Shown here: one piece after another, positions 1,401 to 12,589 of the stretch | Numbering within the stretch: position 1 is the stretch's first letter | Layout: each line of letters begins with the position of its first letter | Program-made: the position numbers and the translations under genes | DNA from: an uncultured Nautiliales bacterium | Lineage (GTDB): Bacteria > Campylobacterota > Campylobacteria > Campylobacterales > Nautiliaceae | Reading direction: 5' to 3' | Assembly (NCBI GenBank): GCA_964514005.1 | Contig: CAZEOW010000003.1 | Coordinates: forward strand, 1 to 26,733 | Length of the DNA: 26,733 bases | Notes under the pieces: model-generated | Database searches by the model: none | What the model was told of the DNA's origin: nothing | The model's input: only the letters and a program-made list of their open reading frames with translations

Positions 1401-2345
1401 TTATTTTATTGTTGAAAAAATTTTATATGATTTTTTTCTTTTACCATTAGAGTTTATTACTCCCCAATATTTTTCTGCTTGTTTAAAATATCCTGTATGA
1501 TTAGGATTATCTATAAAATTAAAAAAATTAAATCCTATTAAGTTAGCCCCATTTTTGAAAATTGGTATTAGTTTTTTAAATTCTTTTAATACATAGCTTT
1601 GAAGGTTAGTTTTATAGCTTGAAATAGCTAAATATGCTAGAAAAGTTGGTTTTTTATACTTTTTATTTAAGTATAAAGCAAATGCAAGTGCTCTTAGGGG
1701 AGTATTTTTTATCTCTTTTATATTATTTCTTGTTATTGCTCTCATTTCTTGAAAAGCTATAAAGTCACTTATTTTAGCACTCTCTTTCATTGAAGGAGAA
1801 TATAAATTCCAGTTATATTCATCCCATATTTTATTGTAATCTCCAAAATCTCCTAAACATATTCCAACTAAAGTGTTTTTATCTTTTAAAAGTTTTATTG
1901 ATTTTACTTGTAATTTATCAAATTGTTTTGAAGAGGCCATATTGTTTTCGTTATATTCTGGATTGATTATAACAATTTTTTTGCCTTTAATTTTTTTTAA
2001 AAAATTTTTAAATTTTTTTAATTTAGCAAAATACTCTTTTTTATGTTTTTTTACAAATTCTGGTGAAATTTCATCTGCAAAGTAATAAAAAATAAAAATA
2101 GGAGTAAATCCTTTTTTAATTGCTTTATTAATTGTTTTAGCCGGATACCAAAACTCTTTCCAATCTCTTGTGATCCAAATAGAAAATGAGTTTACATTTT
2201 TTGGAGTAATTTTATAAATAGGAATTCTATCTTTATAGGAGCATTTTTTATAAAAGGCTTTATTTTTGCAAACAGTAAATCCTCCAACTCCAATATAAAA
2301 AGCAAAACTAAATGAAAAAGAGAGTATTAATAATAATTTACTCAT
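1401..2345 (-). CDS. Secreted (beta/alpha)8 glycoside hydrolase-like protein, clan GH-A-like
   Basis: Signal peptide MSKLLLILSFSFSFA; IIINPEYNE acid/base-like motif; KPTFLAY strand; C-terminal AEKYWGVINSNGKRKKSY resembles the E..fGl...dg..K motif. ATG 2345 is preferred; the track start 2351 is TTG. Confidence 0.65.
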   Translation of the reverse strand: MSKLLLILSFSFSFAFYIGVGGFTVCKNKAFYKKCSYKDRIPIYKITPKNVNSFSIWITRDWKEFWYPAKTINKAIKKGFTPIFIFYYFADEISPEFVKKHKKEYFAKLKKFKNFLKKIKGKKIVIINPEYNENNMASSKQFDKLQVKSIKLLKDKNTLVGICLGDFGDYNKIWDEYNWNLYSPSMKESAKISDFIAFQEMRAITRNNIKEIKNTPLRALAFALYLNKKYKKPTFLAYLAISSYKTNLQSYVLKEFKKLIPIFKNGANLIGFNFFNFIDNPNHTGYFKQAEKYWGVINSNGKRKKSYKIFSTIK

Positions 2346-4107
2346 AATCAATTATAAGGGAAATTGTGGATTTTGGATAAAGTTTTTTAATTCTAACATC
2401 TATAAACCTTTCTTTTTTATTGATGTTTATAATTTTTATTTTTGTTTTTAATACTTCAGGGGCAATGTGTTTAATTTTTACATTTGGATAATATATCCTA
2501 AAAGTAAAATTATCTATATCTACTTCGTTATCGTTAGAAATACCTATAAAAATCTTTTTTTCTGTAATTGTATCTATATGAAGTGAAATATTCTTTAAAA
2601 GTTTTGCTCTTTTGGCTATATCTTTTCCTTTTAGAGTTGGAATTTTTTGTTGTTTTAAAAATTTAAAATACTCTTTTAATATATGAATATTTTCTGGAGC
2701 ACTTAAAAGATGAGTATGAACACTTAGAGTGTATAATGTATTAAGAGATGTTAGTAATTTAGTCTCTTTTTTTATATGATCTAATATTTGCTTATCGTTG
2801 AAATTGTATTCAATAAGATATAAATAATCATCTGTTCCATGACGAGGAAGTAAAACAAAATTATCTATTATTGTTGGTTGCAAAGAAGGAATAGATTTTG
2901 CCATAACATATAAGTAATTGGCTTTTTTAATGTATTCTTTTATGATATTATTAATTTCCTCTCTTGGAGGTCTAAAACCTAAAACTTCTTTTTTAGTTAT
3001 TTTTTGTAAAATATTTTTAGATGCGATTATTTCTTGAGAAGCGTTTTTATTATTAATTTTAGAATGAGAAAAACTATGAGAAGCTATTTCTATATTCTTA
3101 AAAGAAGATGCTTTTTTTGTAATTTTTTTATGTTCTTGAGCAAGTTTTGCTACACAAAATAGAGTTGTATTTATATCATACTCTTTTGCTAATTTAGCAA
3201 AATTTATCATATTTTTATATTTATATTCTGTATCTTCTGATATAAAAACGGCCATTTTTTTATCTAAAAAAGGATATTTTACAAGAGTAATGGGATTTTT
3301 GAAATAGCTAAATATATTTTTAAAAATTGTATTAAAAGTTTTTTCACTCATATCTAAAAATGTGTATGCTGGAGTATTGAAATAAAACCATTTTCCTTTT
3401 TTATAAAATCCGTGCCATAAAATCCCTGCTTTTTTTACATTTAAATGTTTTGGAGTATCGGTAAGTGCCCAATTAGTAAGTGCTAAATCGGGAGTTTTTG
3501 TGAATAAATCTATATAATCATTTCCATAAAGAGTAATGAAAGAGGTTTTTAAGTTTTCTGCTTTTGCAATAGGGGATAGAAGCTTATATGTAAAAAAAGA
3601 TAAATCTTTTTTATAGAGTTTATAATCAGTTGACTTTAGATTAGTAAGATTTATTAAATATAGATTATTTGTAGGAATTAAATTTTCATTAAAATATCCA
3701 AAGTGGTAATTAAATATTAAATTCCCCCCTTTTTTTAAAAATTCTTGAATTTTAAAAAAAGTTTCTCTGCTTAATACATAATTATCGGGAATTATTAAAA
3801 TATCTTTTTTGGAAAGTTGCCTAATTTCATTAGGATATATAGTTTTTGTATTAAATCCTAATGTTTGGATTCTTTGTTGGAATTTTTCAAATACTCTATT
3901 GTAATTGTTTAATAATCCGTTCTTTTCTAAATATAAATCGTTTAATTGAGTTTTTAAAAAATATATATTCTGTTTAGGAGGTTGAAAAAAGCTAAAATTA
4001 TCATTTTTAGGAAGTATTTGATATAAAACATAACCAGAAATAGTAATCATTATAAATACTGATAAAAAAACAAAAAGAGGGTAGGTATATCTATTCGAAA
4101 AAGACAT
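2338..4107 (-). CDS. Membrane-anchored polysaccharide deacetylase (CE4/NodB-like) with an N-terminal class-I GATase-like domain
   Basis: N-terminal TM; ILIIPDNYVLS...FLKKGGNLIF (GATase/GH42-middle-like); VFISEDTE (motif 1 variant), EIASHSFSH (HxxxH), GFRPP and LSVHTH. AGGAG SD at 4114-4118. Confidence 0.85.
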   Translation of the reverse strand: MSFSNRYTYPLFVFLSVFIMITISGYVLYQILPKNDNFSFFQPPKQNIYFLKTQLNDLYLEKNGLLNNYNRVFEKFQQRIQTLGFNTKTIYPNEIRQLSKKDILIIPDNYVLSRETFFKIQEFLKKGGNLIFNYHFGYFNENLIPTNNLYLINLTNLKSTDYKLYKKDLSFFTYKLLSPIAKAENLKTSFITLYGNDYIDLFTKTPDLALTNWALTDTPKHLNVKKAGILWHGFYKKGKWFYFNTPAYTFLDMSEKTFNTIFKNIFSYFKNPITLVKYPFLDKKMAVFISEDTEYKYKNMINFAKLAKEYDINTTLFCVAKLAQEHKKITKKASSFKNIEIASHSFSHSKINNKNASQEIIASKNILQKITKKEVLGFRPPREEINNIIKEYIKKANYLYVMAKSIPSLQPTIIDNFVLLPRHGTDDYLYLIEYNFNDKQILDHIKKETKLLTSLNTLYTLSVHTHLLSAPENIHILKEYFKFLKQQKIPTLKGKDIAKRAKLLKNISLHIDTITEKKIFIGISNDNEVDIDNFTFRIYYPNVKIKHIAPEVLKTKIKIININKKERFIDVRIKKLYPKSTISLIIDYE

Positions 4108-4267
4108 ACTTTTCTCCTAATTCATTTAAAACATCTTCATAAGTTAATTCTTTTTTTGTTTTCTTTCTTTCTCTAGCTTTGTATAAAAAGTAAGCTATTA
4201 CTCCAAATATTAAAGTAAGCAGGGTTATTATTAAAATAAGCATTGATAAAAAACTTAAAATATTCAT
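4091..4267 (-). CDS. Small single-pass membrane protein, 58 aa; candidate PgaD/IcaD-like synthase partner
   Basis: Hand translation: MNILSFLSMLILIITLLTLIFGVIAYFLYKARERKKTKKELTYEDVLNELGEKYVFFE*. ATGA overlap with the GT2 stop, AAGGA SD upstream, 17-nt overlap with the deacetylase start. Below the ORF-track length cutoff. Confidence 0.8.
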   Translation of the reverse strand: MNILSFLSMLILIITLLTLIFGVIAYFLYKARERKKTKKELTYEDVLNELGEKYVFFE

Positions 4268-5589
4268 AAATTTCCTTTTCTATCTAATTTCCCCCAGCTC
4301 ATTTTTACACCAAACCACTCTTCAAATGTAGATAATATTTTAGCAAGATTTATCACTTGAATAAAAAATAATCTATAATATATAGCATAAAATGCTAAAC
4401 TTAATTTATCTCCTGTTACTAATATACAAAACAAAGCTCCAGCAATATCTACTATTGTAAACATTACCCACCAGTAAAACATTAATATACTATACCCAGA
4501 TACCATAGCACTATATAAAATAAACATATTAGCCCATAAATCCATAAAGGGCCAAAAAATTGCTTCAAACAGCATATACCACATTGTAAAAGATGCGGCT
4601 ATATTGCCTCTCCATTTCCATAAAAGTTTTTTATGTTTTCTAATAGCCTGTAATATTCCCCTTGTCCATCTATATCTTTGTTTTATTAAGTTTAATAATT
4701 CTTCTGGAGCTTCTGTATAGGCTACTGCATCGGGTTCAAAATCGATTTTATAACCTTTAGATATAAGCTTTAATGTAACATCACAATCTTCTGCAAATGT
4801 ATCATCATCATATAAGCCTACTTCAATTAATGCATTTTTTCTAAACATTCCAATAGGACCGGGAATTATATTTACAAGTTTTAAAAAAGCCTGACCATTT
4901 CTTACCATATTAAGCCCTTCTAAATACTCAAGGGCTTGAAGTTTTGTCCATAGGTTATTTTGATTGCTTACATAAACTGAACCGGCTACTGCGGCTATGT
5001 CTTCATCTTCAAAATGGGTTACCATTAAAGCTACTGCATCTTTATCAAGTTTTGAATCAGCATCAACTACCATTATTAAATCGCCCTCCGCTCTTTCTAT
5101 ACCATAATTAATCGCCATAGCTTTTCCACCATTTTTTTTTCTAAATACTCTAATCTCTTTTTTAGGGTGATTTTCATATCTTTTTGCAATGGAGTATGTT
5201 TTGTCTTTTGAACCATCATCAATTACTATAATTTCTAAATTTTGATAAGTTTGTTGAGTAAGAGATTCTATTGATTTTGCAATTACAACTTCTTCATTAT
5301 ATGCAGGAACTATTATACTTACTTTTAAAGATGTGTTTTTATTTATCTCTTTTTCTGAATTAATAGCTATTTTAATTATTGAAAAAAATAAAAGTAAAAA
5401 GTATCTTAAAATAATTAGGGTAGTAAAAAATAGAATTAATATCATTCCGGCTTTTGCAAAAATATTTTGGATATTGTAAAAAGTCTGATAAAAGTGAAAA
5501 AGCGTATAACCAAGTCCTGTTATTAAAATAAAACTTAAAAATATAATAACAGGAAGTTTTACCAAACTTTTAATATTTCTAATAAACAT
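4264..5589 (-). CDS. Processive GT2 synthase, PgaC/IcaA/MatB-like (poly-beta-1,6-GlcNAc synthase-like)
   Basis: Two N-terminal and several C-terminal TMs; DDGS (124-127), NGGKA, DAD (176-178), AED, QRYRW (304-308); C-terminal WGKLDRKG; no PilZ domain, so not BcsA. Confidence 0.88.
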   Translation of the reverse strand: MFIRNIKSLVKLPVIIFLSFILITGLGYTLFHFYQTFYNIQNIFAKAGMILILFFTTLIILRYFLLLFFSIIKIAINSEKEINKNTSLKVSIIVPAYNEEVVIAKSIESLTQQTYQNLEIIVIDDGSKDKTYSIAKRYENHPKKEIRVFRKKNGGKAMAINYGIERAEGDLIMVVDADSKLDKDAVALMVTHFEDEDIAAVAGSVYVSNQNNLWTKLQALEYLEGLNMVRNGQAFLKLVNIIPGPIGMFRKNALIEVGLYDDDTFAEDCDVTLKLISKGYKIDFEPDAVAYTEAPEELLNLIKQRYRWTRGILQAIRKHKKLLWKWRGNIAASFTMWYMLFEAIFWPFMDLWANMFILYSAMVSGYSILMFYWWVMFTIVDIAGALFCILVTGDKLSLAFYAIYYRLFFIQVINLAKILSTFEEWFGVKMSWGKLDRKGNL

Positions 5590-8500
5590 TCTATACTTTC
5601 ATAATCATTAGTATTAGTTGTGTTTGAGCTGTTTGAAAAACTACAACCGGTTTTAAATATTTTATTTTTATAAAAAGCTGATATTTTATATAAATTTTTG
5701 CTATCAAAAAAACTATATCCTATAGCACCTTTTAATGTTAAGTAATTTTTTTGATATTTTATCCCTATAAAATTTGAATCTGTCTTTTTAGGAGAATAGT
5801 AGCAACTATTTTTTGAGTTAAATTGATACCATCCTTCAGCAAACATTGTAAATGGAAATGATTCATAAAAGTCATAATAAAATTGAGGAGTAAAAACATT
5901 ATTTTTATTGTTTACATACTCATATGCTAAGCTATACCACAAATCTCTAATAGGAGAAATTTGATTAAAGTATGAAATTTCAGCTTTAATTCTGTTGTAT
6001 TTAATAGAACAGATACTTTTTCTTGAATATGCTAAATTATGTTTATTTATTCTAAAAGTGTATTTGTTAAAATATTCAATATCCCATCCTACCATTTTTT
6101 CAATATCATAAAAAATATCTATTAAGAAGTTTTTATTTTTATATCCTATACCGTAGTAGTAACTTTTATGGTTTTGGTTATTTTGAGTTAGATTATATCC
6201 TCTAATTAACCCAAAAATATTTTTTCCCGCTGTTAAATAGTAAGTTGTCATATCAGTTTTTTGATTATCTTTGAAGTAGTTTAATTTAAAATTTAAAAAA
6301 TAATTTTTTAAAGTTTTTATTACTACTATACTTTTTTTAGGTTGAGTTTTTTTAGGAGTTGTTTTAATGGGTTTAATTATTTTTTTAGGAGGTTTTTTTA
6401 TAGTAATTTTTTTAATAAGAGGTTTTTTTATAATATTTTTATGTGAAACTACTTTTTTTGATTTAGATTTTTTAGCTTCAATAGCTTTTAAATTTTCTAA
6501 TATATATTTTTTTAAAGAGTTTTCTTTTTTAAATGGAACATATTTGCCTTTTTCCCAACTTTCTCTAATAATTTTACACTTTTTTTCGCATTTAATATAT
6601 AAAGTTTTATATCCTTTATCTTTTTTTCTTTTAGATGCAAATACTTGGTAAAACTTTACTATATATACATTTTTTCTTTTTTCTAATAATATAGGGTCAT
6701 ATATTCCTACACTTATAAAATAGGAGTTTTTAAATAGAGCCTGTTTTCTTAATACCCATCCTAAATTATTAGTATAATTTTTTCCATAAAATTTTGAATA
6801 CTCTCTAAAATTCATACTCTCCCAAGCTTTTTTCCAATTATTTAAAAACTCTTTTAAAGAATTAGGAAGAGGTTTTGGCATTTGAGAGAGAAGTTTTTTA
6901 TATATTTTTTTTGCCTCTTCTATTTTTCCGGATTTTTGAAGAGAATAAGCATAGTTATACTCAATAGTAGGAGTTTTTTTATACCACATTAAAAGATAAA
7001 ATTCTCCTGCTGCTTTAGCGTATTGTTTTGAGTATTCTAATGTATAAGCATATTTTTCATGAACATCATAATCATCAGGATTATATGATAGATACATCTT
7101 ATAATAATCTGCAGCTGTTGCATAATTATTTGAAAAATAGGCTCTATCTCCTAAAATAAGTAGCTTTTTACTTCTGTTGTTAAAATATTCATCTATTGTA
7201 GCAGCAGTGCTTGAAGTTACAAAATTGGGAGATATTTTTAATATTTTTGCTTTTAAAATGGCAGCTTTTTTATAATTGGGATATTTATTTAATAATTGAT
7301 TTAATACTCTTAAAGCTTCTTTATTAAAACCATTCCAATAGTATCTTTTTGCAAGTTCTAAATAAGCTTCTTTTGTGTTTTTATAGTTTGCATAATATTC
7401 CCAATTTCCAAAACCTTTATAATAATTTTTTAATTCAAGATATATATCTCCTAAAGTTTTATAGATTTGAGCATTTTCAGGGTGAAGTTTCAAATATCTT
7501 TCATAATAATAAGCTGATTGCTGATAATTTTTTATCATATAATAAAAATCTGCTAATTTTAATAAATACTCTTCATTAGCAGGGTCTTTTTTAAGAAGTT
7601 TTTTATATTTTTTTATAAGTGGAGCGATATTTTTATTTAAAATCATTAAACTCTCTTTTGCATCTTCGTCAAATGGATTTTCTTTTAATACCTTTTTAAA
7701 CATACTTTTTGCTTTTTTCTTATTTCCTTGCCACATTTGAATGTAAGCCAACATTTTATAAGCTTCATATTTTTCTTTTTTATTGCCGTGTTCTAAAACA
7801 TCACTTAAATAGATTGTAGCTTGATAATATTTTCCTTCCCATGCAAGGATTTTTCCAAGTAAAAGTTTTACTTTTGGATTATTTGTGTGTTGAAGTTTTT
7901 TTAAATATTCTAAAGCTTCTTTATTATTTCCACTCCAACTTAGAAGTTTTGCAAGTAAAATTTTTGCATTGTCATTATGGGGATTTTTATTAATAAAATC
8001 CTGAACTAATAATACTGCTTTTTTATGATTTTGTTGGAATAAAGCAAAAGCAAGTGCTTCTAAATTTTTGTAAGATGGGTCTTTTTTATAGGCTTCTTCT
8101 AAATTTTTAATAACTCTTTTTTTAGCTTCTTCGATTTTTTTAGAATATTTTTGGGTAAATTTTTTATCATATTTTGTAATTTGTTTAAGCAGTTTTTCAG
8201 CTTTGTTATACTCTCCTAAATAATAGTATATTTCAATTAGCTTTTTTGCATAGTCTAATTTAAATGAAGAGTAATAGAGTAATTTAAAATAGTTTTTTGC
8301 TTCTTTATATTTTCCAAGATAATATAAATTATAAGCTTTTATTTCAAAATAATCTATACTTTTTTTGTTTTTTATTTTAGATAGAACAAAAAGAGAGTCT
8401 TTATATTTTCCTTCCCACATCAACACTCTTGCTATTTTTATTTTTGAATCATCAGTTAAAGAGTCTATTTTTTTTATTGCATTAAGAGCATAAAAGAATT

Positions 8501-8828
8501 GTAAAAGCTTTTTATATTTTCCTTTTTCGTAAAAGTAAGAGACTGTATTATTTGGATTTTTGATTAAATATTTTTTATAAATAAAAAAAGATTCTATTTG
8601 TCTTTTTAATTTTTTTGCTATTTTATTTTTTTTATCTATTTTTAAAACTTTTTCTATATATTTTTTAGCTTCTTTATAATTTCCTTTTTGAATATAATAT
8701 TTTGCTAATAAAAGGCGGTTTTTTGTATCGTATTTGTGAGTTTTTACATATTGGATTAAACCTTTTACATCAATATTTAAAGCAAAAAGAGGAATAAAAA
8801 ATAAAAGCAGCAATACTCTTATTTGCAT
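5559..8828 (-). CDS. Outer-membrane polysaccharide export protein: signal peptide, TPR scaffold, NTF2-like domain, K/P-rich linker, C-terminal beta-barrel (PgaA/BcsC/PelB functional class)
   Basis: MQIRVLLLLFFIPLFA signal (ATG 8828 preferred over 8846); many TPRs with recurrent LA..L.W.G; about 250 C-terminal residues of alternating aromatic strands including CYYSP, ending in Trp. Confidence 0.78.
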   Translation of the reverse strand: MQIRVLLLLFFIPLFALNIDVKGLIQYVKTHKYDTKNRLLLAKYYIQKGNYKEAKKYIEKVLKIDKKNKIAKKLKRQIESFFIYKKYLIKNPNNTVSYFYEKGKYKKLLQFFYALNAIKKIDSLTDDSKIKIARVLMWEGKYKDSLFVLSKIKNKKSIDYFEIKAYNLYYLGKYKEAKNYFKLLYYSSFKLDYAKKLIEIYYYLGEYNKAEKLLKQITKYDKKFTQKYSKKIEEAKKRVIKNLEEAYKKDPSYKNLEALAFALFQQNHKKAVLLVQDFINKNPHNDNAKILLAKLLSWSGNNKEALEYLKKLQHTNNPKVKLLLGKILAWEGKYYQATIYLSDVLEHGNKKEKYEAYKMLAYIQMWQGNKKKAKSMFKKVLKENPFDEDAKESLMILNKNIAPLIKKYKKLLKKDPANEEYLLKLADFYYMIKNYQQSAYYYERYLKLHPENAQIYKTLGDIYLELKNYYKGFGNWEYYANYKNTKEAYLELAKRYYWNGFNKEALRVLNQLLNKYPNYKKAAILKAKILKISPNFVTSSTAATIDEYFNNRSKKLLILGDRAYFSNNYATAADYYKMYLSYNPDDYDVHEKYAYTLEYSKQYAKAAGEFYLLMWYKKTPTIEYNYAYSLQKSGKIEEAKKIYKKLLSQMPKPLPNSLKEFLNNWKKAWESMNFREYSKFYGKNYTNNLGWVLRKQALFKNSYFISVGIYDPILLEKRKNVYIVKFYQVFASKRKKDKGYKTLYIKCEKKCKIIRESWEKGKYVPFKKENSLKKYILENLKAIEAKKSKSKKVVSHKNIIKKPLIKKITIKKPPKKIIKPIKTTPKKTQPKKSIVVIKTLKNYFLNFKLNYFKDNQKTDMTTYYLTAGKNIFGLIRGYNLTQNNQNHKSYYYGIGYKNKNFLIDIFYDIEKMVGWDIEYFNKYTFRINKHNLAYSRKSICSIKYNRIKAEISYFNQISPIRDLWYSLAYEYVNNKNNVFTPQFYYDFYESFPFTMFAEGWYQFNSKNSCYYSPKKTDSNFIGIKYQKNYLTLKGAIGYSFFDSKNLYKISAFYKNKIFKTGCSFSNSSNTTNTNDYESIECLLEILKVW

Positions 8829-10120
8829 ATTTTTGTCTCTTCCCATTCAAATGCTTCTATAATATCCGCTTTTGATATATACAATTTTTCAAAAATTGGT
8901 TTTAAATTCCCTTTTCTTACATTAATTAAAACTACATAATAAAATTTTCCATCAAAATATATAATATCTTTATTTCTTAATTTATCGGCTATTTTTTCTA
9001 AATTAAGTTCAGATGTAAATTTAATTAAAGTAAATACAATTCTTTCTAAATATAATGAATTAATAATTTTGCAAAAATTTTCTAATGAATTTGCAATTTT
9101 ATTTTTAGGAAATTTATTTAATAAAGATGTATAAAAGTGAAACTTTATAAGTTTTTCGACTTCTAAAATGTATTCTCCTATTAAAAATTTATTTGGTAAT
9201 ATATCTTCGCATCCTTCTTTAATTGCAAGCATTTTATCTTCTACTCTTACATACTCTTTATTTACTATATATAAAATCTTTGAATCTATTTTTTCTTTCA
9301 TTTTACATATACTTATATCTAATCTATCTGAATTATAAATGACAATATGAGGATTTTCTAAAATTTTTGAAATTACATCCGAAGTGTTTGTAGCAATTTT
9401 TAATTCAAACATAGGTTTATCAAAAATATACCTGTTTAAATTGAGTAGATTTTTGTCTTGCGATACTATTAAAATTTTCTTTTTATTGATAGAGACTTTT
9501 TTTTCTTTTGAATCTGAAAGGTTTAATCTCTCTCCATTGTATAAAAATTGACACTCTTCATATCTTATAGGAAAAATAGAGTGTTTAATAGATAATATTC
9601 TTTGAGATGTTCTTTTTACTATTAAATTTAAATCACTAAAATTTTCCATTATTTCTATACAGGAAGTATTGTCTTTATTGGGAACTGCTGTTATCCATAG
9701 TTTTATTTTTCCTTTTATTTCTATTAATTCTTCCATAAAAGGTTTAACTTCTTCTATATCCGAAATTGAAAATAAAAGGTCAATTCTTTGAAAGATTAAA
9801 ATATCAGGATTAAAAGTTTTAATTATTCTTTTTAGATCTTCTAACAAAAACTTATATCCAAATTGAATTTTAAAGTCTTCCCAATTCTCTTTTAAATTTA
9901 AATATTCTAATTTTTTAATAGTTTGTTGCAGTTTTTCATCTTTTATAAAAGAAATTGCTTTTAATCTTTTTTCAAAAATTTGTTTAGGATAAGCGGATAA
10001 AATTAAAACTTTTGCTTTTTGTCTTGAAATTTCAAATAAACTAAAAGTTAATTTTCCAACTTTTTTACTCCCTTCTATTAAAATTATATCAGATTGTTGT
10101 AATGCATCATGTATTGTCAT
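8819..10120 (-). CDS. BcsE-like protein: degenerate RecA/KaiC-like domain, degenerate receiver, degenerate GGDEF with intact I-site
   Basis: GSKKVGKLT (Walker A-like, aa 17-25); KKILIVSQD...PHIVIYN receiver lacking the phospho-Asp; RVED (292-295); LRNKDIIYFDGKFYYVVL (RxxD 382-385, GGDEF lost). AAGGA SD. Confidence 0.7.
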   Translation of the reverse strand: MTIHDALQQSDIILIEGSKKVGKLTFSLFEISRQKAKVLILSAYPKQIFEKRLKAISFIKDEKLQQTIKKLEYLNLKENWEDFKIQFGYKFLLEDLKRIIKTFNPDILIFQRIDLLFSISDIEEVKPFMEELIEIKGKIKLWITAVPNKDNTSCIEIMENFSDLNLIVKRTSQRILSIKHSIFPIRYEECQFLYNGERLNLSDSKEKKVSINKKKILIVSQDKNLLNLNRYIFDKPMFELKIATNTSDVISKILENPHIVIYNSDRLDISICKMKEKIDSKILYIVNKEYVRVEDKMLAIKEGCEDILPNKFLIGEYILEVEKLIKFHFYTSLLNKFPKNKIANSLENFCKIINSLYLERIVFTLIKFTSELNLEKIADKLRNKDIIYFDGKFYYVVLINVRKGNLKPIFEKLYISKADIIEAFEWEETKICK

Positions 10121-11957
10121 TTAATTCCTTTAATTGATTCTCAAATACCTTTACAAGAGGCGATTTTTCATATTTTAATACTTTTATTATCAATATAATA
10201 GCCTCTTTATTGTAAGGGTCTTTTTCTAAAACTTTATAAAGGTATTTTTTTGCCTTTTTATACTCTTTTAAGTAAAAATAGTCTTTTGCTATTACAAGAT
10301 AACTTTCGCTATTTTTTAAAATATCTAAACTTTTTTTAAATTTTTTTAAATTAAATAAGATTTCTCCTAAAACAGATTTAGTCTCTTTATTAGGATTTAA
10401 GTTATATGCTATATTGGCAAAATTTAAAGCCTCTTTTGGAGAAGATAATTTAGCTTTTAATAAATAAGGTTTATAAGAAGCTTTATTTATTGTTTCTAAA
10501 CTTTTTTCTATATATGTTTTTGCAAGAGGCAGATTTTTTTCTTTATAAGCTTTTAGGGCTTTTTTGTAATTTGTTAAAGAGAGATATTTTATAGTTTTTG
10601 GTTTTGAAAACAAATTGTTTTTTATTGCTTGAATTTTAATATACCACCATCCATCGTTAAGCTCGCTTAAAGAAAAATATTTTTTAGAAGTTTTATATCT
10701 TAAAATAGGAGTTTTTATAAATTTTTTATCTCTACTGATAGTAATTACAAACTTTTTATAAGGACTTGTCCATTTTAATATATTTTCTATTTTTAACTCT
10801 TTAACAGGAAGAGGAAGTATTGTTTTAATAATCTCTCCATTCTTTGTATAAAAACCTTCATTTTCTTTTATTTTAATTTTATCTGTTGTAATTGCCCCGC
10901 TATACACACTTGTAGCTAATGTTTTTTCGTTTTTTATTACTTCAAAATCTGTTCCGTAATTTTTTATTTTATTATTTTCTGCTATTATTTCTACTTTGTT
11001 GTTATTAGTAATAAATTCAGCATCAGCTTTTTTTATAATAATCTTATTTTTAAAATTTGTTGAAAATAAATTTTTATAAGCTCTTATTTCTAACTTATCA
11101 TTTTTATAAGTCTTTATTATTACATTGTTTTCAAGTTTGTATATTTTCATATTATTTGAACTGCCAATATCTATTTTTTGGGGAAAAAGACAGTAAAAAT
11201 AATCTATTGAAAACAATAGAACAATCGTAACAGTTGATAAAGCAGCGGCAAGTCTTTTTATTCTTATAATTTTTGCTGTTTTTGGAAGATATATAAAAAA
11301 ACTTGTTCCTTCTTTCTCTTTACTCTCTACAGCAATTGAACCTCCTAATTTTTCTATTACCACTTTAGTTAAATTAAGTCCAATTCCACTCCCTTCTTTT
11401 TTATCAGTTGTATAATATTTTTTAAATATTTTTGTTATTTCTTCTTTGCTAATTCCTTCTCCCGTATCTTTTATAGAAATTAAATAACCGCTTTTTTCTT
11501 TTTCTACTTTTATAAAAACAACACCTTTGTATTTATTATATTTTATAGCATTATGCAAGAGATTAAAAAAAGCCTTTTTTAACCACTCTTTATTAGCAGT
11601 AATAGGAAGCTTTTCGTGTTTAAAAACTATTTCTATCTCTTTTCTTTCAATATCGCTTTTTAACTCTTCTAAAATCTCCCATATTAACTCATTTAAATTA
11701 AATCTATGATTTTTTAATTTACTTCTTTTATATCTTTCAACTTCAATAAAATCTTTTAACATCTCAATAACTATATTAAGATTGGTTTTTATATTTCTTA
11801 AAAGTTCTTCTTTTTTCTCTTTTGGAATCTTTTTTTCTAAAATGGAAACTGAAAATTTAATACTTGCAAGTTTATTTTTTATATCGTGATAAAAAACATG
11901 TGCAAAAGGTGTTTTTTTTTTAACATTATTCTCCCCCTTTTCTAAAAATATATCCAA
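10107..11957 (-). CDS. Histidine kinase with inverted architecture: HisKA-HATPase, TM, FecR-like, FN3-like, TPR
   Basis: H-box YHDIKNKL, N-box NLLHNAIKY, G1 KDTGEG, G2 GSGIGL; TM aa 236-258; YGTDFEV...SVYSG (FecR-like); GWWYIKIQAI (FN3-like). The track start 11957 is a weak TTG; a stronger ATG at 11926 is out of frame. Confidence 0.85.
   Translation of the reverse strand: MDIFLEKGENNVKKKTPFAHVFYHDIKNKLASIKFSVSILEKKIPKEKKEELLRNIKTNLNIVIEMLKDFIEVERYKRSKLKNHRFNLNELIWEILEELKSDIERKEIEIVFKHEKLPITANKEWLKKAFFNLLHNAIKYNKYKGVVFIKVEKEKSGYLISIKDTGEGISKEEITKIFKKYYTTDKKEGSGIGLNLTKVVIEKLGGSIAVESKEKEGTSFFIYLPKTAKIIRIKRLAAALSTVTIVLLFSIDYFYCLFPQKIDIGSSNNMKIYKLENNVIIKTYKNDKLEIRAYKNLFSTNFKNKIIIKKADAEFITNNNKVEIIAENNKIKNYGTDFEVIKNEKTLATSVYSGAITTDKIKIKENEGFYTKNGEIIKTILPLPVKELKIENILKWTSPYKKFVITISRDKKFIKTPILRYKTSKKYFSLSELNDGWWYIKIQAIKNNLFSKPKTIKYLSLTNYKKALKAYKEKNLPLAKTYIEKSLETINKASYKPYLLKAKLSSPKEALNFANIAYNLNPNKETKSVLGEILFNLKKFKKSLDILKNSESYLVIAKDYFYLKEYKKAKKYLYKVLEKDPYNKEAIILIIKVLKYEKSPLVKVFENQLKELNDNT
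11912..11921 (-). repeat. A10 homopolymer in the first codons of the histidine kinase
   Basis: Ten T on the plus strand. Minus strand reads GGGGGAGAATA-ATG-TT-A10-CACC. It is the longest run I noticed in the window. Confidence 0.9.
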
Positions 11958-12582
11958 GCTCTCTTTTATTTATAATTAAATCTTTTTTTCCAAGTTTTTC
12001 TCTTAATCTTTTTACCAAAACATTTAAAGTATTTTTTGGAACATATTCTTGCCATATGTGAGATATGATAAAATCAGAACTTAAAATCTTTCCTTCATTA
12101 TTTAAAAATAATTCCAATAAATCACTTTCTCTTCTTGTAAGATTGATTACTTTTGCTTTTTTTATTAAAAGTTTTTCTTCATAGTTATACTTAATATCAT
12201 CGTCTATATAAATAATTTTTTTAGGTTTAAAAATTTTATTAATTCTCAAAATTATTTCTTCATAATCAAACGGTTTTTTTATAAAATCTTCTGCACCAAG
12301 CTCAAAGGCTTTTTTTATATTTTCTATTTCAGTATGACTTGACATAATAATAATTTTGTATCTTTCAAAGATTTGAAAATGTTTTTTCATCTCTTCTAAA
12401 AAATTCCCATCAGGTAAAGTTATATCAGCCAAAATCAAATCAGGATCTATTTTTTCAAAGTTTTGTAAAAACTCTTTAAGGGTATAATATGAATATATTC
12501 TAAACTCTTCTGCTTCAAGAATTAAACTTATAGCATAATTTAAATCTTTTTCGTCTTCTAGGATAACTATCTTCAACTTCAC
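11926..12582 (-). CDS. OmpR/PhoB-family response regulator
   Basis: ILEDE acidic pocket, DLILADITLPDG phospho-Asp, KKPF, winged-helix LTRRE...LNVLVKRLREKL...GY. GTG start at 12582 or TTG at 12576. Confidence 0.93.
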   Translation of the reverse strand: MKLKIVILEDEKDLNYAISLILEAEEFRIYSYYTLKEFLQNFEKIDPDLILADITLPDGNFLEEMKKHFQIFERYKIIIMSSHTEIENIKKAFELGAEDFIKKPFDYEEIILRINKIFKPKKIIYIDDDIKYNYEEKLLIKKAKVINLTRRESDLLELFLNNEGKILSSDFIISHIWQEYVPKNTLNVLVKRLREKLGKKDLIINKRELGYIFRKGGE

Positions 12583-12589
12583 CCCCCCC
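12582..12589 (-). repeat. G8 homopolymer forming the ribosome-binding region of the response regulator
   Basis: Eight C on the plus strand between the rsmE stop (12591) and the regulator start. It is the longest G/C run seen in this AT-rich window. Confidence 0.85.

What the first reader, a model, noticed from the sequence alone, without database searches (positions are those of the whole stretch)
11881..11957. Best kinase start codon is out of frame across an A10 tract: possible phase-variable switch
Seen: ATG 11926 overlaps the regulator stop (TAATG, as at nuoL/nuoM and nuoN/pflA) and follows a GGGGGAG SD, but gives only MLKKKHLLHMFFITI*. With A11 or A8 it reads MLKKKTPFAHVFYH (or one Lys fewer) in frame with the kinase. 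The in-frame alternative is a TTG with weak SD. Known: C. jejuni flgR and flgS phase-vary at poly-A/T tracts, and long A runs also permit transcriptional slippage. Inference: this copy is in an OFF or low state, giving biofilm bet-hedging. A homopolymer sequencing error is equally possible.
Basis: partly seen in the sequence, partly recalled or inferred. Interest (0 to 1): 0.7.

Follow-up and report, generated by a model that had tools for sequence, protein, structure and literature searches.

The report
Conserved frameshift after kinase start codon
In a deep-sea-vent bacterium, a sensor kinase gene is one base out of frame with its original start codon next to a run of ten A's; the shift is real and shared by almost the whole population, so the kinase is probably made at a low level by slippage on the A run or from a weak upstream start.

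Summary
On the minus strand the regulator stop overlaps an ATG (TAATG, 11928-11924). That ATG has one of the strongest ribosome-binding sites in the window. It is followed by TT and A10 (11921-11912) and gives only a 15-residue peptide; the kinase lies in the -1 frame.

It is not an assembly error. Ten of 11 assemblies of the same Nautiliaceae population carry ATG-TT-A10. One (L020) carries ATG-TTT-A10, in frame (MFKKKTPF...). Orthologues begin MFKFNKTPF..., so the ATG is the ancestral start and the TTG extension is not conserved.

DNA-level phase variation is not supported. A10 is invariant. The frame difference is T2 versus T3, and the T3 allele sits at the edge of a recombination block.

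The kinase ORF is intact in all five full copies, with dN/dS about 0.1, so it is still made. The genome avoids long A runs: 7 of 8 Lys-Lys-Lys runs are broken by AAG, and this run is the only unbroken one.

My best reading (about 45%) is initiation at the ATG, with frame restoration by transcriptional slippage (A10 to A11) and/or an SD-stimulated -1 ribosomal slip. The main rival (about 30%) is initiation at TTG 11957. This would be a new member of a known kind.

The parts
11926..12582 (-). OmpR-family response regulator gene. Its last codons (AGA AAA GGG GGA GAA TAA = RKGGE*) encode the SD for the kinase ATG.
   Evidence: Pfam Response_reg 6.8e-19 and Trans_reg_C 2.5e-17. An orthologous regulator lies upstream of the kinase in 19 of the 24 orthologue loci searched.
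11931..11937 (-). Shine-Dalgarno GGGGGAG. It lies 4 nt before the ATG, and 9 and 12 nt before the two in-phase A_AAA_AAA heptamers.
   Evidence: Duplex with the anti-SD is -10.9 kcal/mol; only 0.9% of window positions reach -9 or lower. A spacing of 9-14 nt is the range reported for SD-stimulated -1 frameshifting (PMC5009743).
11924..11926 (-). Ancestral kinase start codon ATG, overlapping the regulator stop (TAATG). In this allele it is out of frame with the kinase.
   Evidence: L020 uses this ATG in frame.
11922..11923 (-). TT, where the in-frame relative L020 and the orthologues have TTT/TTC (Phe2). This is the site of the 1-nt deletion.
11912..11921 (-). A10 run, the proposed slippage site. 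It is invariant in 11 assemblies and is the longest homopolymer in the window.
11879..11926 (-). Short ORF read from the ATG without a shift: MLKKKHLLHMFFITI plus stop.
11955..11957 (-). In-frame TTG inside the regulator gene: an alternative start giving a 10-residue longer N-terminus.
   Evidence: It is out of frame in L019, which has T6 instead of T5 at 11944-11948.
11886..11888 (-). Codon of the phospho-accepting His (YHDIKNKL H-box). It would be residue 14 of the ATG-initiated protein.
   Evidence: The HisKA match begins at this His. HDIKNKL is invariant or nearly so in orthologues.
10107..11912 (-). Kinase body: DHp and HATPase_c, a hydrophobic stretch that is a likely membrane span, then a C-terminal domain with TPR. 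It is intact (601 codons) in all five full-length copies.

Best explanation
This is a real 1-nt deletion (TTT to TT) directly after the ancestral ATG start of a two-component sensor kinase, at the 5' edge of an A10 run. Nearly the whole population carries it. The polycistronic mRNA runs rsmE, regulator, kinase and then the exopolysaccharide genes.

Ribosomes load at the strong SD/ATG that overlaps the regulator stop. Most of them make a 15-residue peptide and stop. A minority produce the full kinase (MLKKKTPFAHVFYHD...) by one or both of two routes:
(a) RNA polymerase slips on the T10 template and adds one A, so the mRNA carries A11.
(b) The ribosome slips -1 on A_AAA_AAA, helped by the same SD, which sits 9-12 nt upstream.

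The result is a permanently low kinase-to-regulator ratio rather than an ON/OFF switch.

Shown: the anatomy, the ancestral start, the persistence of the allele, and constraint on the ORF. Inferred: that slippage, rather than the upstream TTG, supplies the protein.
For: (1) The allele is real and common. ATG-TT-A10 occurs in 10 of 11 assemblies from SPAdes, MEGAHIT, JGI and Logan.
(2) The ATG is ancestral. L020 has ATG TTT A10 in frame (MFKKKTPF), and orthologues start MFKFNKTPF....
(3) The SD of the ATG is among the strongest in the window; the TTG has a weak SD with no spacer.
(4) The kinase ORF is 601 codons without stop or indel in 5 copies, with dN/dS 0.06-0.19, including pairs that both carry the frameshift. 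Only 3 indel columns occur in 3.7 kb, and all are in homopolymers at the regulator's borders.
(5) L019 carries an extra T that puts the TTG out of frame, leaving no canonical in-frame start, yet its kinase ORF is intact.
(6) The genome breaks its lysine runs with AAG in 7 of 8 cases although AAA is 91% of Lys codons (P=4e-4). The exception is exactly this run.
(7) A single added A, or a -1 slip, gives the orthologue-like N-terminus.
(8) Precedents exist. Citrobacter tssM has an A11 run with about 20% frameshifting, through mRNAs carrying 10-15 A (PMC4256274). Slippage occurs on runs of 9 A/T, SD stimulators act 9-14 nt upstream of -1 sites, and one SD serves both initiation and frameshifting in an IS element (PMC5009743).
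Against: - There are no RNA or protein data.
- The in-frame TTG exists in 9 of the 10 frameshifted assemblies, and TTG starts that overlap the regulator's end occur in orthologues L042 and L043.
- In E. coli cell-free translation A9 and A10 gave little ribosome sliding, whereas A11 was robust (PMC4363877). A_AAA_AAA is also less shift-prone than A_AAA_AAG (PMC5009743).
- No downstream stimulatory structure was found (z=0.35).
- The A10 run is also present in the in-frame allele L020, so it was not selected because of the frameshift.
- Recombination means that some kinase divergence may predate the spread of the deletion, which weakens the dN/dS argument.
- The T6 in L019 rests on a single assembly.
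Confidence: 0.45

Rival explanations
1. Start-codon replacement. After the deletion, the kinase is translated from TTG 11957, 31 nt inside the regulator gene, with ten extra N-terminal residues. The ATG then only yields a wasted peptide. No recoding is involved.
For: The TTG is in frame and the stretch to the H-box is open in the window and in L021, L022 and L048-L053. Gene callers chose it. Orthologues tolerate weak or overlapping starts: TTG in L042 and L043, GTG in L001, ATT in L025. C. mediatlanticus has a 10-residue longer N-terminus. Kinases are needed in small amounts (established knowledge of two-component systems).
Against: SD pairing is -4.3 kcal/mol and abuts the codon, which is not exceptional against background. 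The TTG lies inside a translated ORF and within a ribosome footprint of the strong SD/ATG. The extension is not conserved in any orthologue. The TTG is out of frame in L019. A start codon in a 13-codon open stretch of this composition is roughly a coin flip (my estimate).
Confidence: 0.3
2. DNA-level phase variation. Slipped-strand mispairing in the T/A run switches the kinase between ON and OFF in individual cells, and the assemblies show only the majority state.
For: The run sits right after the start codon, as in L. monocytogenes inlA A6/A7 (PMC2831843) and C. jejuni flgR/flgS (PMC3930126). Both frames occur in the population (T2 and T3). Other homopolymers nearby do vary: G7/G8/G9 and T5/T6. 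A purifying-selection signal is compatible with frequent ON phases.
Against: A10 is invariant in 11 assemblies. No A9, A11 or A8 allele was seen, and no MLKKKTPF-type kinase is among the five members read in the two clusters (90% identity) that hold the near-identical kinases. The only in-frame allele differs in the T count and is linked to 12 private SNPs within 223 nt, so it is a haplotype rather than a recent switch.
Confidence: 0.1
3. Loss of function. The kinase is simply inactivated in this population and is an early pseudogene, with the regulator acting alone or with another kinase.
For: The ancestral start is out of frame in 10 of 11 assemblies. L019 has a second indel that also removes the TTG.
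Against: The 601-codon ORF in about 23% GC DNA has no stop or indel in any of five copies and dN/dS is about 0.1. Frameshift-bearing lineages differ by dS up to 0.08.
Confidence: 0.08
4. Homopolymer assembly or sequencing error. The true sequence would be A11 or T3.
For: Long homopolymers are error-prone in some platforms.
Against: The same TT-A10 occurs in 10 assemblies from different samples and assemblers. The one in-frame contig has the same A10 with an extra T plus linked SNPs.
Confidence: 0.02

Closest known systems
Citrobacter rodentium / Yersinia pseudotuberculosis tssM transcriptional frameshifting (PMC4256274)
   Same: A genomic frameshift at a poly-A run (A11) inside a functional gene. 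The full-length protein is restored in a fixed fraction (about 20%) by added A's in the mRNA, and the ratio of products matters.
   Different: There the run is near the 3' end and gives two functional length variants. Here it is at codons 2-5, the unshifted product is a 15-residue peptide, and nothing has been measured.
Conserved homopolymer frameshifts rescued by polymerase slippage in Buchnera and Blochmannia (cited in PMC5009743; PMC3017870)
   Same: AT-rich genome, frameshift in a poly-A tract, downstream ORF kept intact, and persistence across strains.
   Different: Those are obligate endosymbionts with relaxed selection. This is a free-living vent Nautiliaceae whose genes otherwise avoid long A runs.
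E. coli dnaX and IS-element -1 programmed frameshifting (PMC5009743)
   Same: An A_AAA_AAN heptamer with an SD-like stimulator 9-14 nt upstream. In one IS element a single SD serves both initiation and frameshifting.
   Different: No downstream stem-loop was found. The heptamer ends in A rather than G. The shift occurs only 2-4 codons after initiation.
Listeria monocytogenes inlA 5' poly-A tract (A6/A7) and C. jejuni flgR/flgS homopolymer phase variation (PMC2831843, PMC3930126)
   Same: A poly-A/T run close to the start of a gene, here a two-component gene in a Campylobacterota relative. The out-of-frame allele gives a very short peptide.
   Different: In those cases tract length itself is polymorphic and switches. 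Here the tract length is constant in 11 assemblies.

Membership tests
Homopolymer (SSR) phase-variable contingency gene | A homopolymer at or near the 5' end of the CDS whose length sets the reading frame | tested here: met
   A10 at codons 2-5. A11 or A8 would restore the ATG frame.
Homopolymer (SSR) phase-variable contingency gene | Tract length polymorphic between or within populations | tested here: not met
   A10 in all 11 assemblies. The only frame polymorphism is T2/T3, and it is tied to a recombination block. Within-sample read data were not available.
Homopolymer (SSR) phase-variable contingency gene | High-frequency reversible switching | not testable with these tools
   Needs reads, amplicons or culture.
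Transcriptional-slippage-dependent gene | A run of 9 or more A or T at the junction of the two frames | tested here: met
   A10 at 11912-11921. The threshold is from PMC5009743.
Transcriptional-slippage-dependent gene | The frameshifted arrangement is conserved and the downstream ORF is under purifying selection | tested here: met
   10 of 11 assemblies; 601 intact codons; dN/dS 0.06-0.19. Caveat: recombination.
Transcriptional-slippage-dependent gene | An mRNA population with heterogeneous run length | not testable with these tools
   No transcript data.
-1 programmed ribosomal frameshift (dnaX / IS type) | An X_XXY_YYZ slippery heptamer in the zero frame | tested here: met
   UUA AAA AAA AAA C contains two in-phase A_AAA_AAA heptamers.
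-1 programmed ribosomal frameshift (dnaX / IS type) | An SD-like stimulator 9-14 nt upstream | tested here: met
   GGGGGAG ends 9 and 12 nt before the heptamers.
-1 programmed ribosomal frameshift (dnaX / IS type) | A downstream stem-loop or pseudoknot | tested here: not met
   MFE -13 kcal/mol, z=0.35 against shuffles. No Rfam element.
HisKA-type two-component sensor kinase with an OmpR-type partner | H-box His, an HATPase_c domain, and an adjacent receiver/wHTH regulator | tested here: met
   HATPase_c 3.5e-24. HisKA 2.9e-4, which is below the gathering score, but HDIKNKL is conserved. Response_reg and Trans_reg_C in the upstream gene.

The most novel reading that the evidence does not exclude
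A free-living hydrothermal-vent Campylobacterota has fixed a frameshift two codons into a sensor kinase gene. It depends on start-proximal slippage on an A10 run (RNA polymerase and/or an SD-tethered ribosome) to make the kinase. One SD/ATG then serves as coupling site, initiator and frameshift stimulator, and the kinase-to-regulator ratio for an exopolysaccharide operon is hard-wired.
Probability: 0.35. Interest if true: 0.6.

Novelty: new member of a known kind. Interest (0 to 1): 0.42.

Why it matters
If slippage supplies the kinase, this would be a natural case of recoding used to set stoichiometry within a two-component operon. It would be in a free-living, uncultured vent bacterium rather than an endosymbiont, pathogen or mobile element. 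It would also warn annotators: pipelines called this gene either from an unconserved TTG or from Met66, and the Met66 call deletes the phospho-His. If the TTG is used instead, it illustrates how a lucky upstream start lets a start-proximal frameshift survive. In either case it shows that a homopolymer frameshift seen in a single metagenome contig can be checked against population data.

Tried and rejected
- An exact-pattern scan of metagenome contigs for the 23-mer downstream of the run found nothing. Near-identical contigs were instead reached through cluster members and exact-protein look-ups.
- A protein search with the hypothetical A11 N-terminus (133 aa) returned no scored hits, so it gave no extra alleles.
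- I first considered that T2 in both sub-clades, with in-frame outgroups, implied recurrent (hypermutable) indels. I rejected this after mapping the SNPs: the T3 allele of L020 ends a 223-nt block with 12 private SNPs, which is a recombination mosaic.
- A downstream frameshift-stimulating structure is not supported.
- Rfam gave only chance snoRNA-like matches.
- The promoter and terminator scan was not above shuffled background, so there is no evidence for an internal kinase promoter.
- Base-composition expectation alone does not make an A/T run of 10 unusual. The signal appears only with synonymous-codon shuffles.

Full report
Anatomy. All genes of interest lie on the minus strand. In order they are:
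- rsmE (13247-12591);
- an OmpR-type response regulator (12582-11926);
- a histidine kinase (ORF 11957-10107);
- a 433-aa protein;
- a 1095-aa TPR protein;
- a family-2 glycosyltransferase;
- a polysaccharide deacetylase.

The kinase is unusual in that its phospho-accepting His (YHDIKNKL) lies almost at the N-terminus. It is followed by HATPase_c, a hydrophobic stretch that is a likely membrane span (inferred by eye from the sequence), and a long C-terminal domain with TPR. The window has 23-31% GC. NuoCD is 83% identical to Lebetimonas natsushimae and 82% to Nautilia, so the organism is an uncultured Nautiliaceae. Related contigs come from hydrothermal-vent metagenomes.

Checking the observation. 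The minus strand reads ...AGAAAAGGGGGAGAATAATGTTAAAAAAAAAACACCTTTTGCACAT....
- The regulator stop TAA (11928-11926) overlaps ATG 11926-11924.
- GGGGGAG (11937-11931) lies 4 nt upstream of the ATG.
- TT and A10 (11921-11912) follow it.
- The ATG frame gives MLKKKHLLHMFFITI* (stop at 11881-11879).
- The kinase frame is -1 relative to the ATG.
- A11 or a -1 slip gives MLKKKTPFAHVFYHD, and A8 gives one Lys fewer.
- The only canonical in-frame start that keeps the H-box is TTG 11957.

The same TAATG overlap occurs at two nuo junctions.

Is it more than chance? By base composition a run of 10 or more is expected about 1.6 times in the window. Within coding sequence the picture differs. Synonymous-codon shuffles predict 4.5 A runs of 10 or more, 9.1 of 9 or more, and 21.5 of 8 or more. 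The observed counts are 1, 4 and 9 (P no higher than 0.006). AAA makes up 91% of Lys codons, yet 7 of the 8 runs of three or more Lys codons contain an AAG (P=4e-4). The single unbroken AAA AAA AAA is the one at the kinase start. This organism therefore avoids slippery A runs, as E. coli does (PMC5009743; PMC4363877), except here.

Which start is ancestral? Orthologues occur only in Nautiliaceae-like genomes and metagenomes, at 36-53% identity. They begin MF(K/R)(F/L)(N/K)K(T/E)PFA..., with ATG TTY AAA... lying 36-39 nt before the FHD of the H-box. None has the MDIFLEKGE extension. A close relative, L020 (JGI 3300028834), has GGGGGAGGATAATGTTTAAAAAAAAAACACC, that is, the same ATG in frame, giving MFKKKTPF... 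(606 aa). The ATG is thus the ancestral start, and the window allele differs by loss of one T (TTT to TT). SD pairing supports this. It is -10.9 kcal/mol with good spacing for the ATG, and only 0.9% of positions in the window reach -9 or lower. For the TTG it is -4.3 kcal/mol with no spacer.

Error or real? Using cluster members and exact-protein look-ups I recovered the junction from L019, L020, L021, L022/L047, L048, L049, L050, L051, L052 and L053. These come from ENA, JGI and Logan, built with several assemblers. Ten of 11 sequences, counting the window, are ATG-TT-A10. Only L020 is ATG-TTT-A10. The A run is 10 in every one. An assembly error is excluded for practical purposes.

Phase variation? 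Tract-length variation is the defining feature of phase variation, and it is absent for the A run. The 3.7 kb shared by five contigs have only three indel columns, all in homopolymers at the regulator's borders:
- G8/G9 at the regulator start, with G7 in L050;
- T5/T6, in L019 only;
- T2/T3 after the ATG.

The tree is ((window, L022), L019), (L021, L020). Because the outgroups are in frame, this at first suggested two independent events. The SNP map changes that reading. L020 carries 12 private SNPs in the 223 nt that end exactly at the extra T, while L021 is window-like there. The in-frame allele is therefore part of a divergent haplotype block. One old indel plus recombination suffices, and I do not count this as evidence for hypermutability.

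Is the kinase still used? In all five full-length copies the 601 codons after the run are free of stops and indels. dN/dS is 0.06-0.19, including pairs that both carry the frameshift; window against L021 has 28 synonymous and 12 non-synonymous differences. Recombination blurs the timing, but an unconstrained 1.8-kb ORF at 23% GC would not stay open. The allele is therefore not simply OFF.

How is the kinase made? There are two candidates.

(i) Slippage from the ATG. A single extra A in the mRNA, or a -1 ribosomal slip on A_AAA_AAA, yields the orthologue-like MLKKKTPF.... Added A's are the products seen at the A11 run of Citrobacter tssM, with about 20% frameshifting (PMC4256274). Slippage on runs of 9 A/T is well known (PMC5009743). 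The SD lies 9 and 12 nt before the two in-phase heptamers, inside the 9-14 nt range that stimulates -1 shifts, and an IS element is known in which one SD both initiates and stimulates. In L019 an extra T (T6) puts the TTG out of frame and truncates the regulator by 5 residues. That leaves no canonical in-frame start, while the ATG/A10 arrangement is untouched.

(ii) Initiation at TTG 11957. It is in frame in 9 of the 10 frameshifted assemblies. Orthologues L042 and L043 use TTG starts that overlap the regulator's end. L025 even has ATT in place of ATG, so weak starts are tolerated in this family.

Points against (i):
- A10 gave little ribosome sliding in an E. coli cell-free system, whereas A11 was robust.
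- A_AAA_AAA is less shift-prone than A_AAA_AAG.
- There is no downstream structure.
- A10 also exists in the in-frame allele.

Points against (ii):
- The SD is poor.
- The TTG lies inside a translated ORF next to a much stronger initiation site.
- The extension is not conserved.
- The TTG is out of frame in L019.

I put (i) at about 0.45 and (ii) at about 0.30. Both may contribute. DNA-level switching gets about 0.10, loss of function about 0.08, and artefact about 0.02.

Comparison with known systems. The locus works most like the transcriptional-slippage genes (tssM, Shigella mxiE, Thermus dnaX, endosymbiont poly-A frameshifts) or an SD-stimulated -1 frameshift (dnaX, IS elements). It meets the sequence-level criteria of both, apart from the downstream structure. 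The product-level criteria cannot be tested here. It resembles the inlA A6/A7 and flgR/flgS phase-variable tracts in position but fails their defining feature, length polymorphism. I found no paper on homopolymer frameshifts in Nautiliaceae.

Verdict. The 'phase-variable OFF switch' reading is not supported. The best reading is a fixed frameshift with leaky expression. It is a new member of a known kind and of moderate interest. The raw reads and metatranscriptomes from these vent samples would give a direct test.

Noticed in passing
window 12582-12589 (+ strand C8; minus strand AAAGGGGGGGGTGAAGTTGAAG): The poly-G run that forms the SD of the response regulator does vary between assemblies: G7 (L050), G8 (eight sequences, counting the window) and G9 (L020, L021). 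It is the only tract here with real length polymorphism. If the true regulator start is the TTG two codons in (MKIVILEDE), as my own count from the sequence suggests, SD spacing would be 7-9 nt.
   Followed up: partly
window 10107-11957 (-) and orthologues P0003-P0020: The kinase family has a reversed layout. The phospho-His is at about residue 14, DHp and HATPase come first, then a hydrophobic stretch that is a likely membrane span, and then a C-terminal domain of about 350 aa with TPR (FecR hit in P0017). Close relatives were found only in Nautiliaceae-like sequences.
   Followed up: no
L019 2814-2819 (equivalent to window 11944-11948): L019 has T6 instead of T5. This ends the regulator at GYIF* (213 aa) and puts the TTG out of frame with the kinase. 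The gene caller then started the kinase at Met66, which removes the H-box.
   Followed up: yes
L025 about 1199 (start of the orthologous kinase): An orthologue has ATT (AAGGAG-N6-ATT TTT AAT...) where the others have ATG, and has no canonical in-frame start. L001 uses GTG, and L042 and L043 use TTG overlapping the regulator's end. Weak kinase starts seem common in this family.
   Followed up: partly
L026 798-1431: The orthologous response regulator matches in two overlapping tblastn segments (residues 3-165 and 141-213), which suggests a frameshift or duplication in that regulator.
   Followed up: no
window 1401-10120 (-): Downstream of the kinase lie a 433-aa protein with no Pfam match, a 1095-aa TPR protein, a GT2 glycosyltransferase, a polysaccharide deacetylase and a 316-aa protein. 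This looks like a Pga-like exopolysaccharide locus that the two-component pair probably controls.
   Followed up: no
L048, L052, L053 (contig ends about 530 nt into the kinase): Three independent contigs break at the same point inside the kinase, next to a block of L020-private SNPs (+407 to +512). This is probably strain mosaicism that fragments the assemblies.
   Followed up: no
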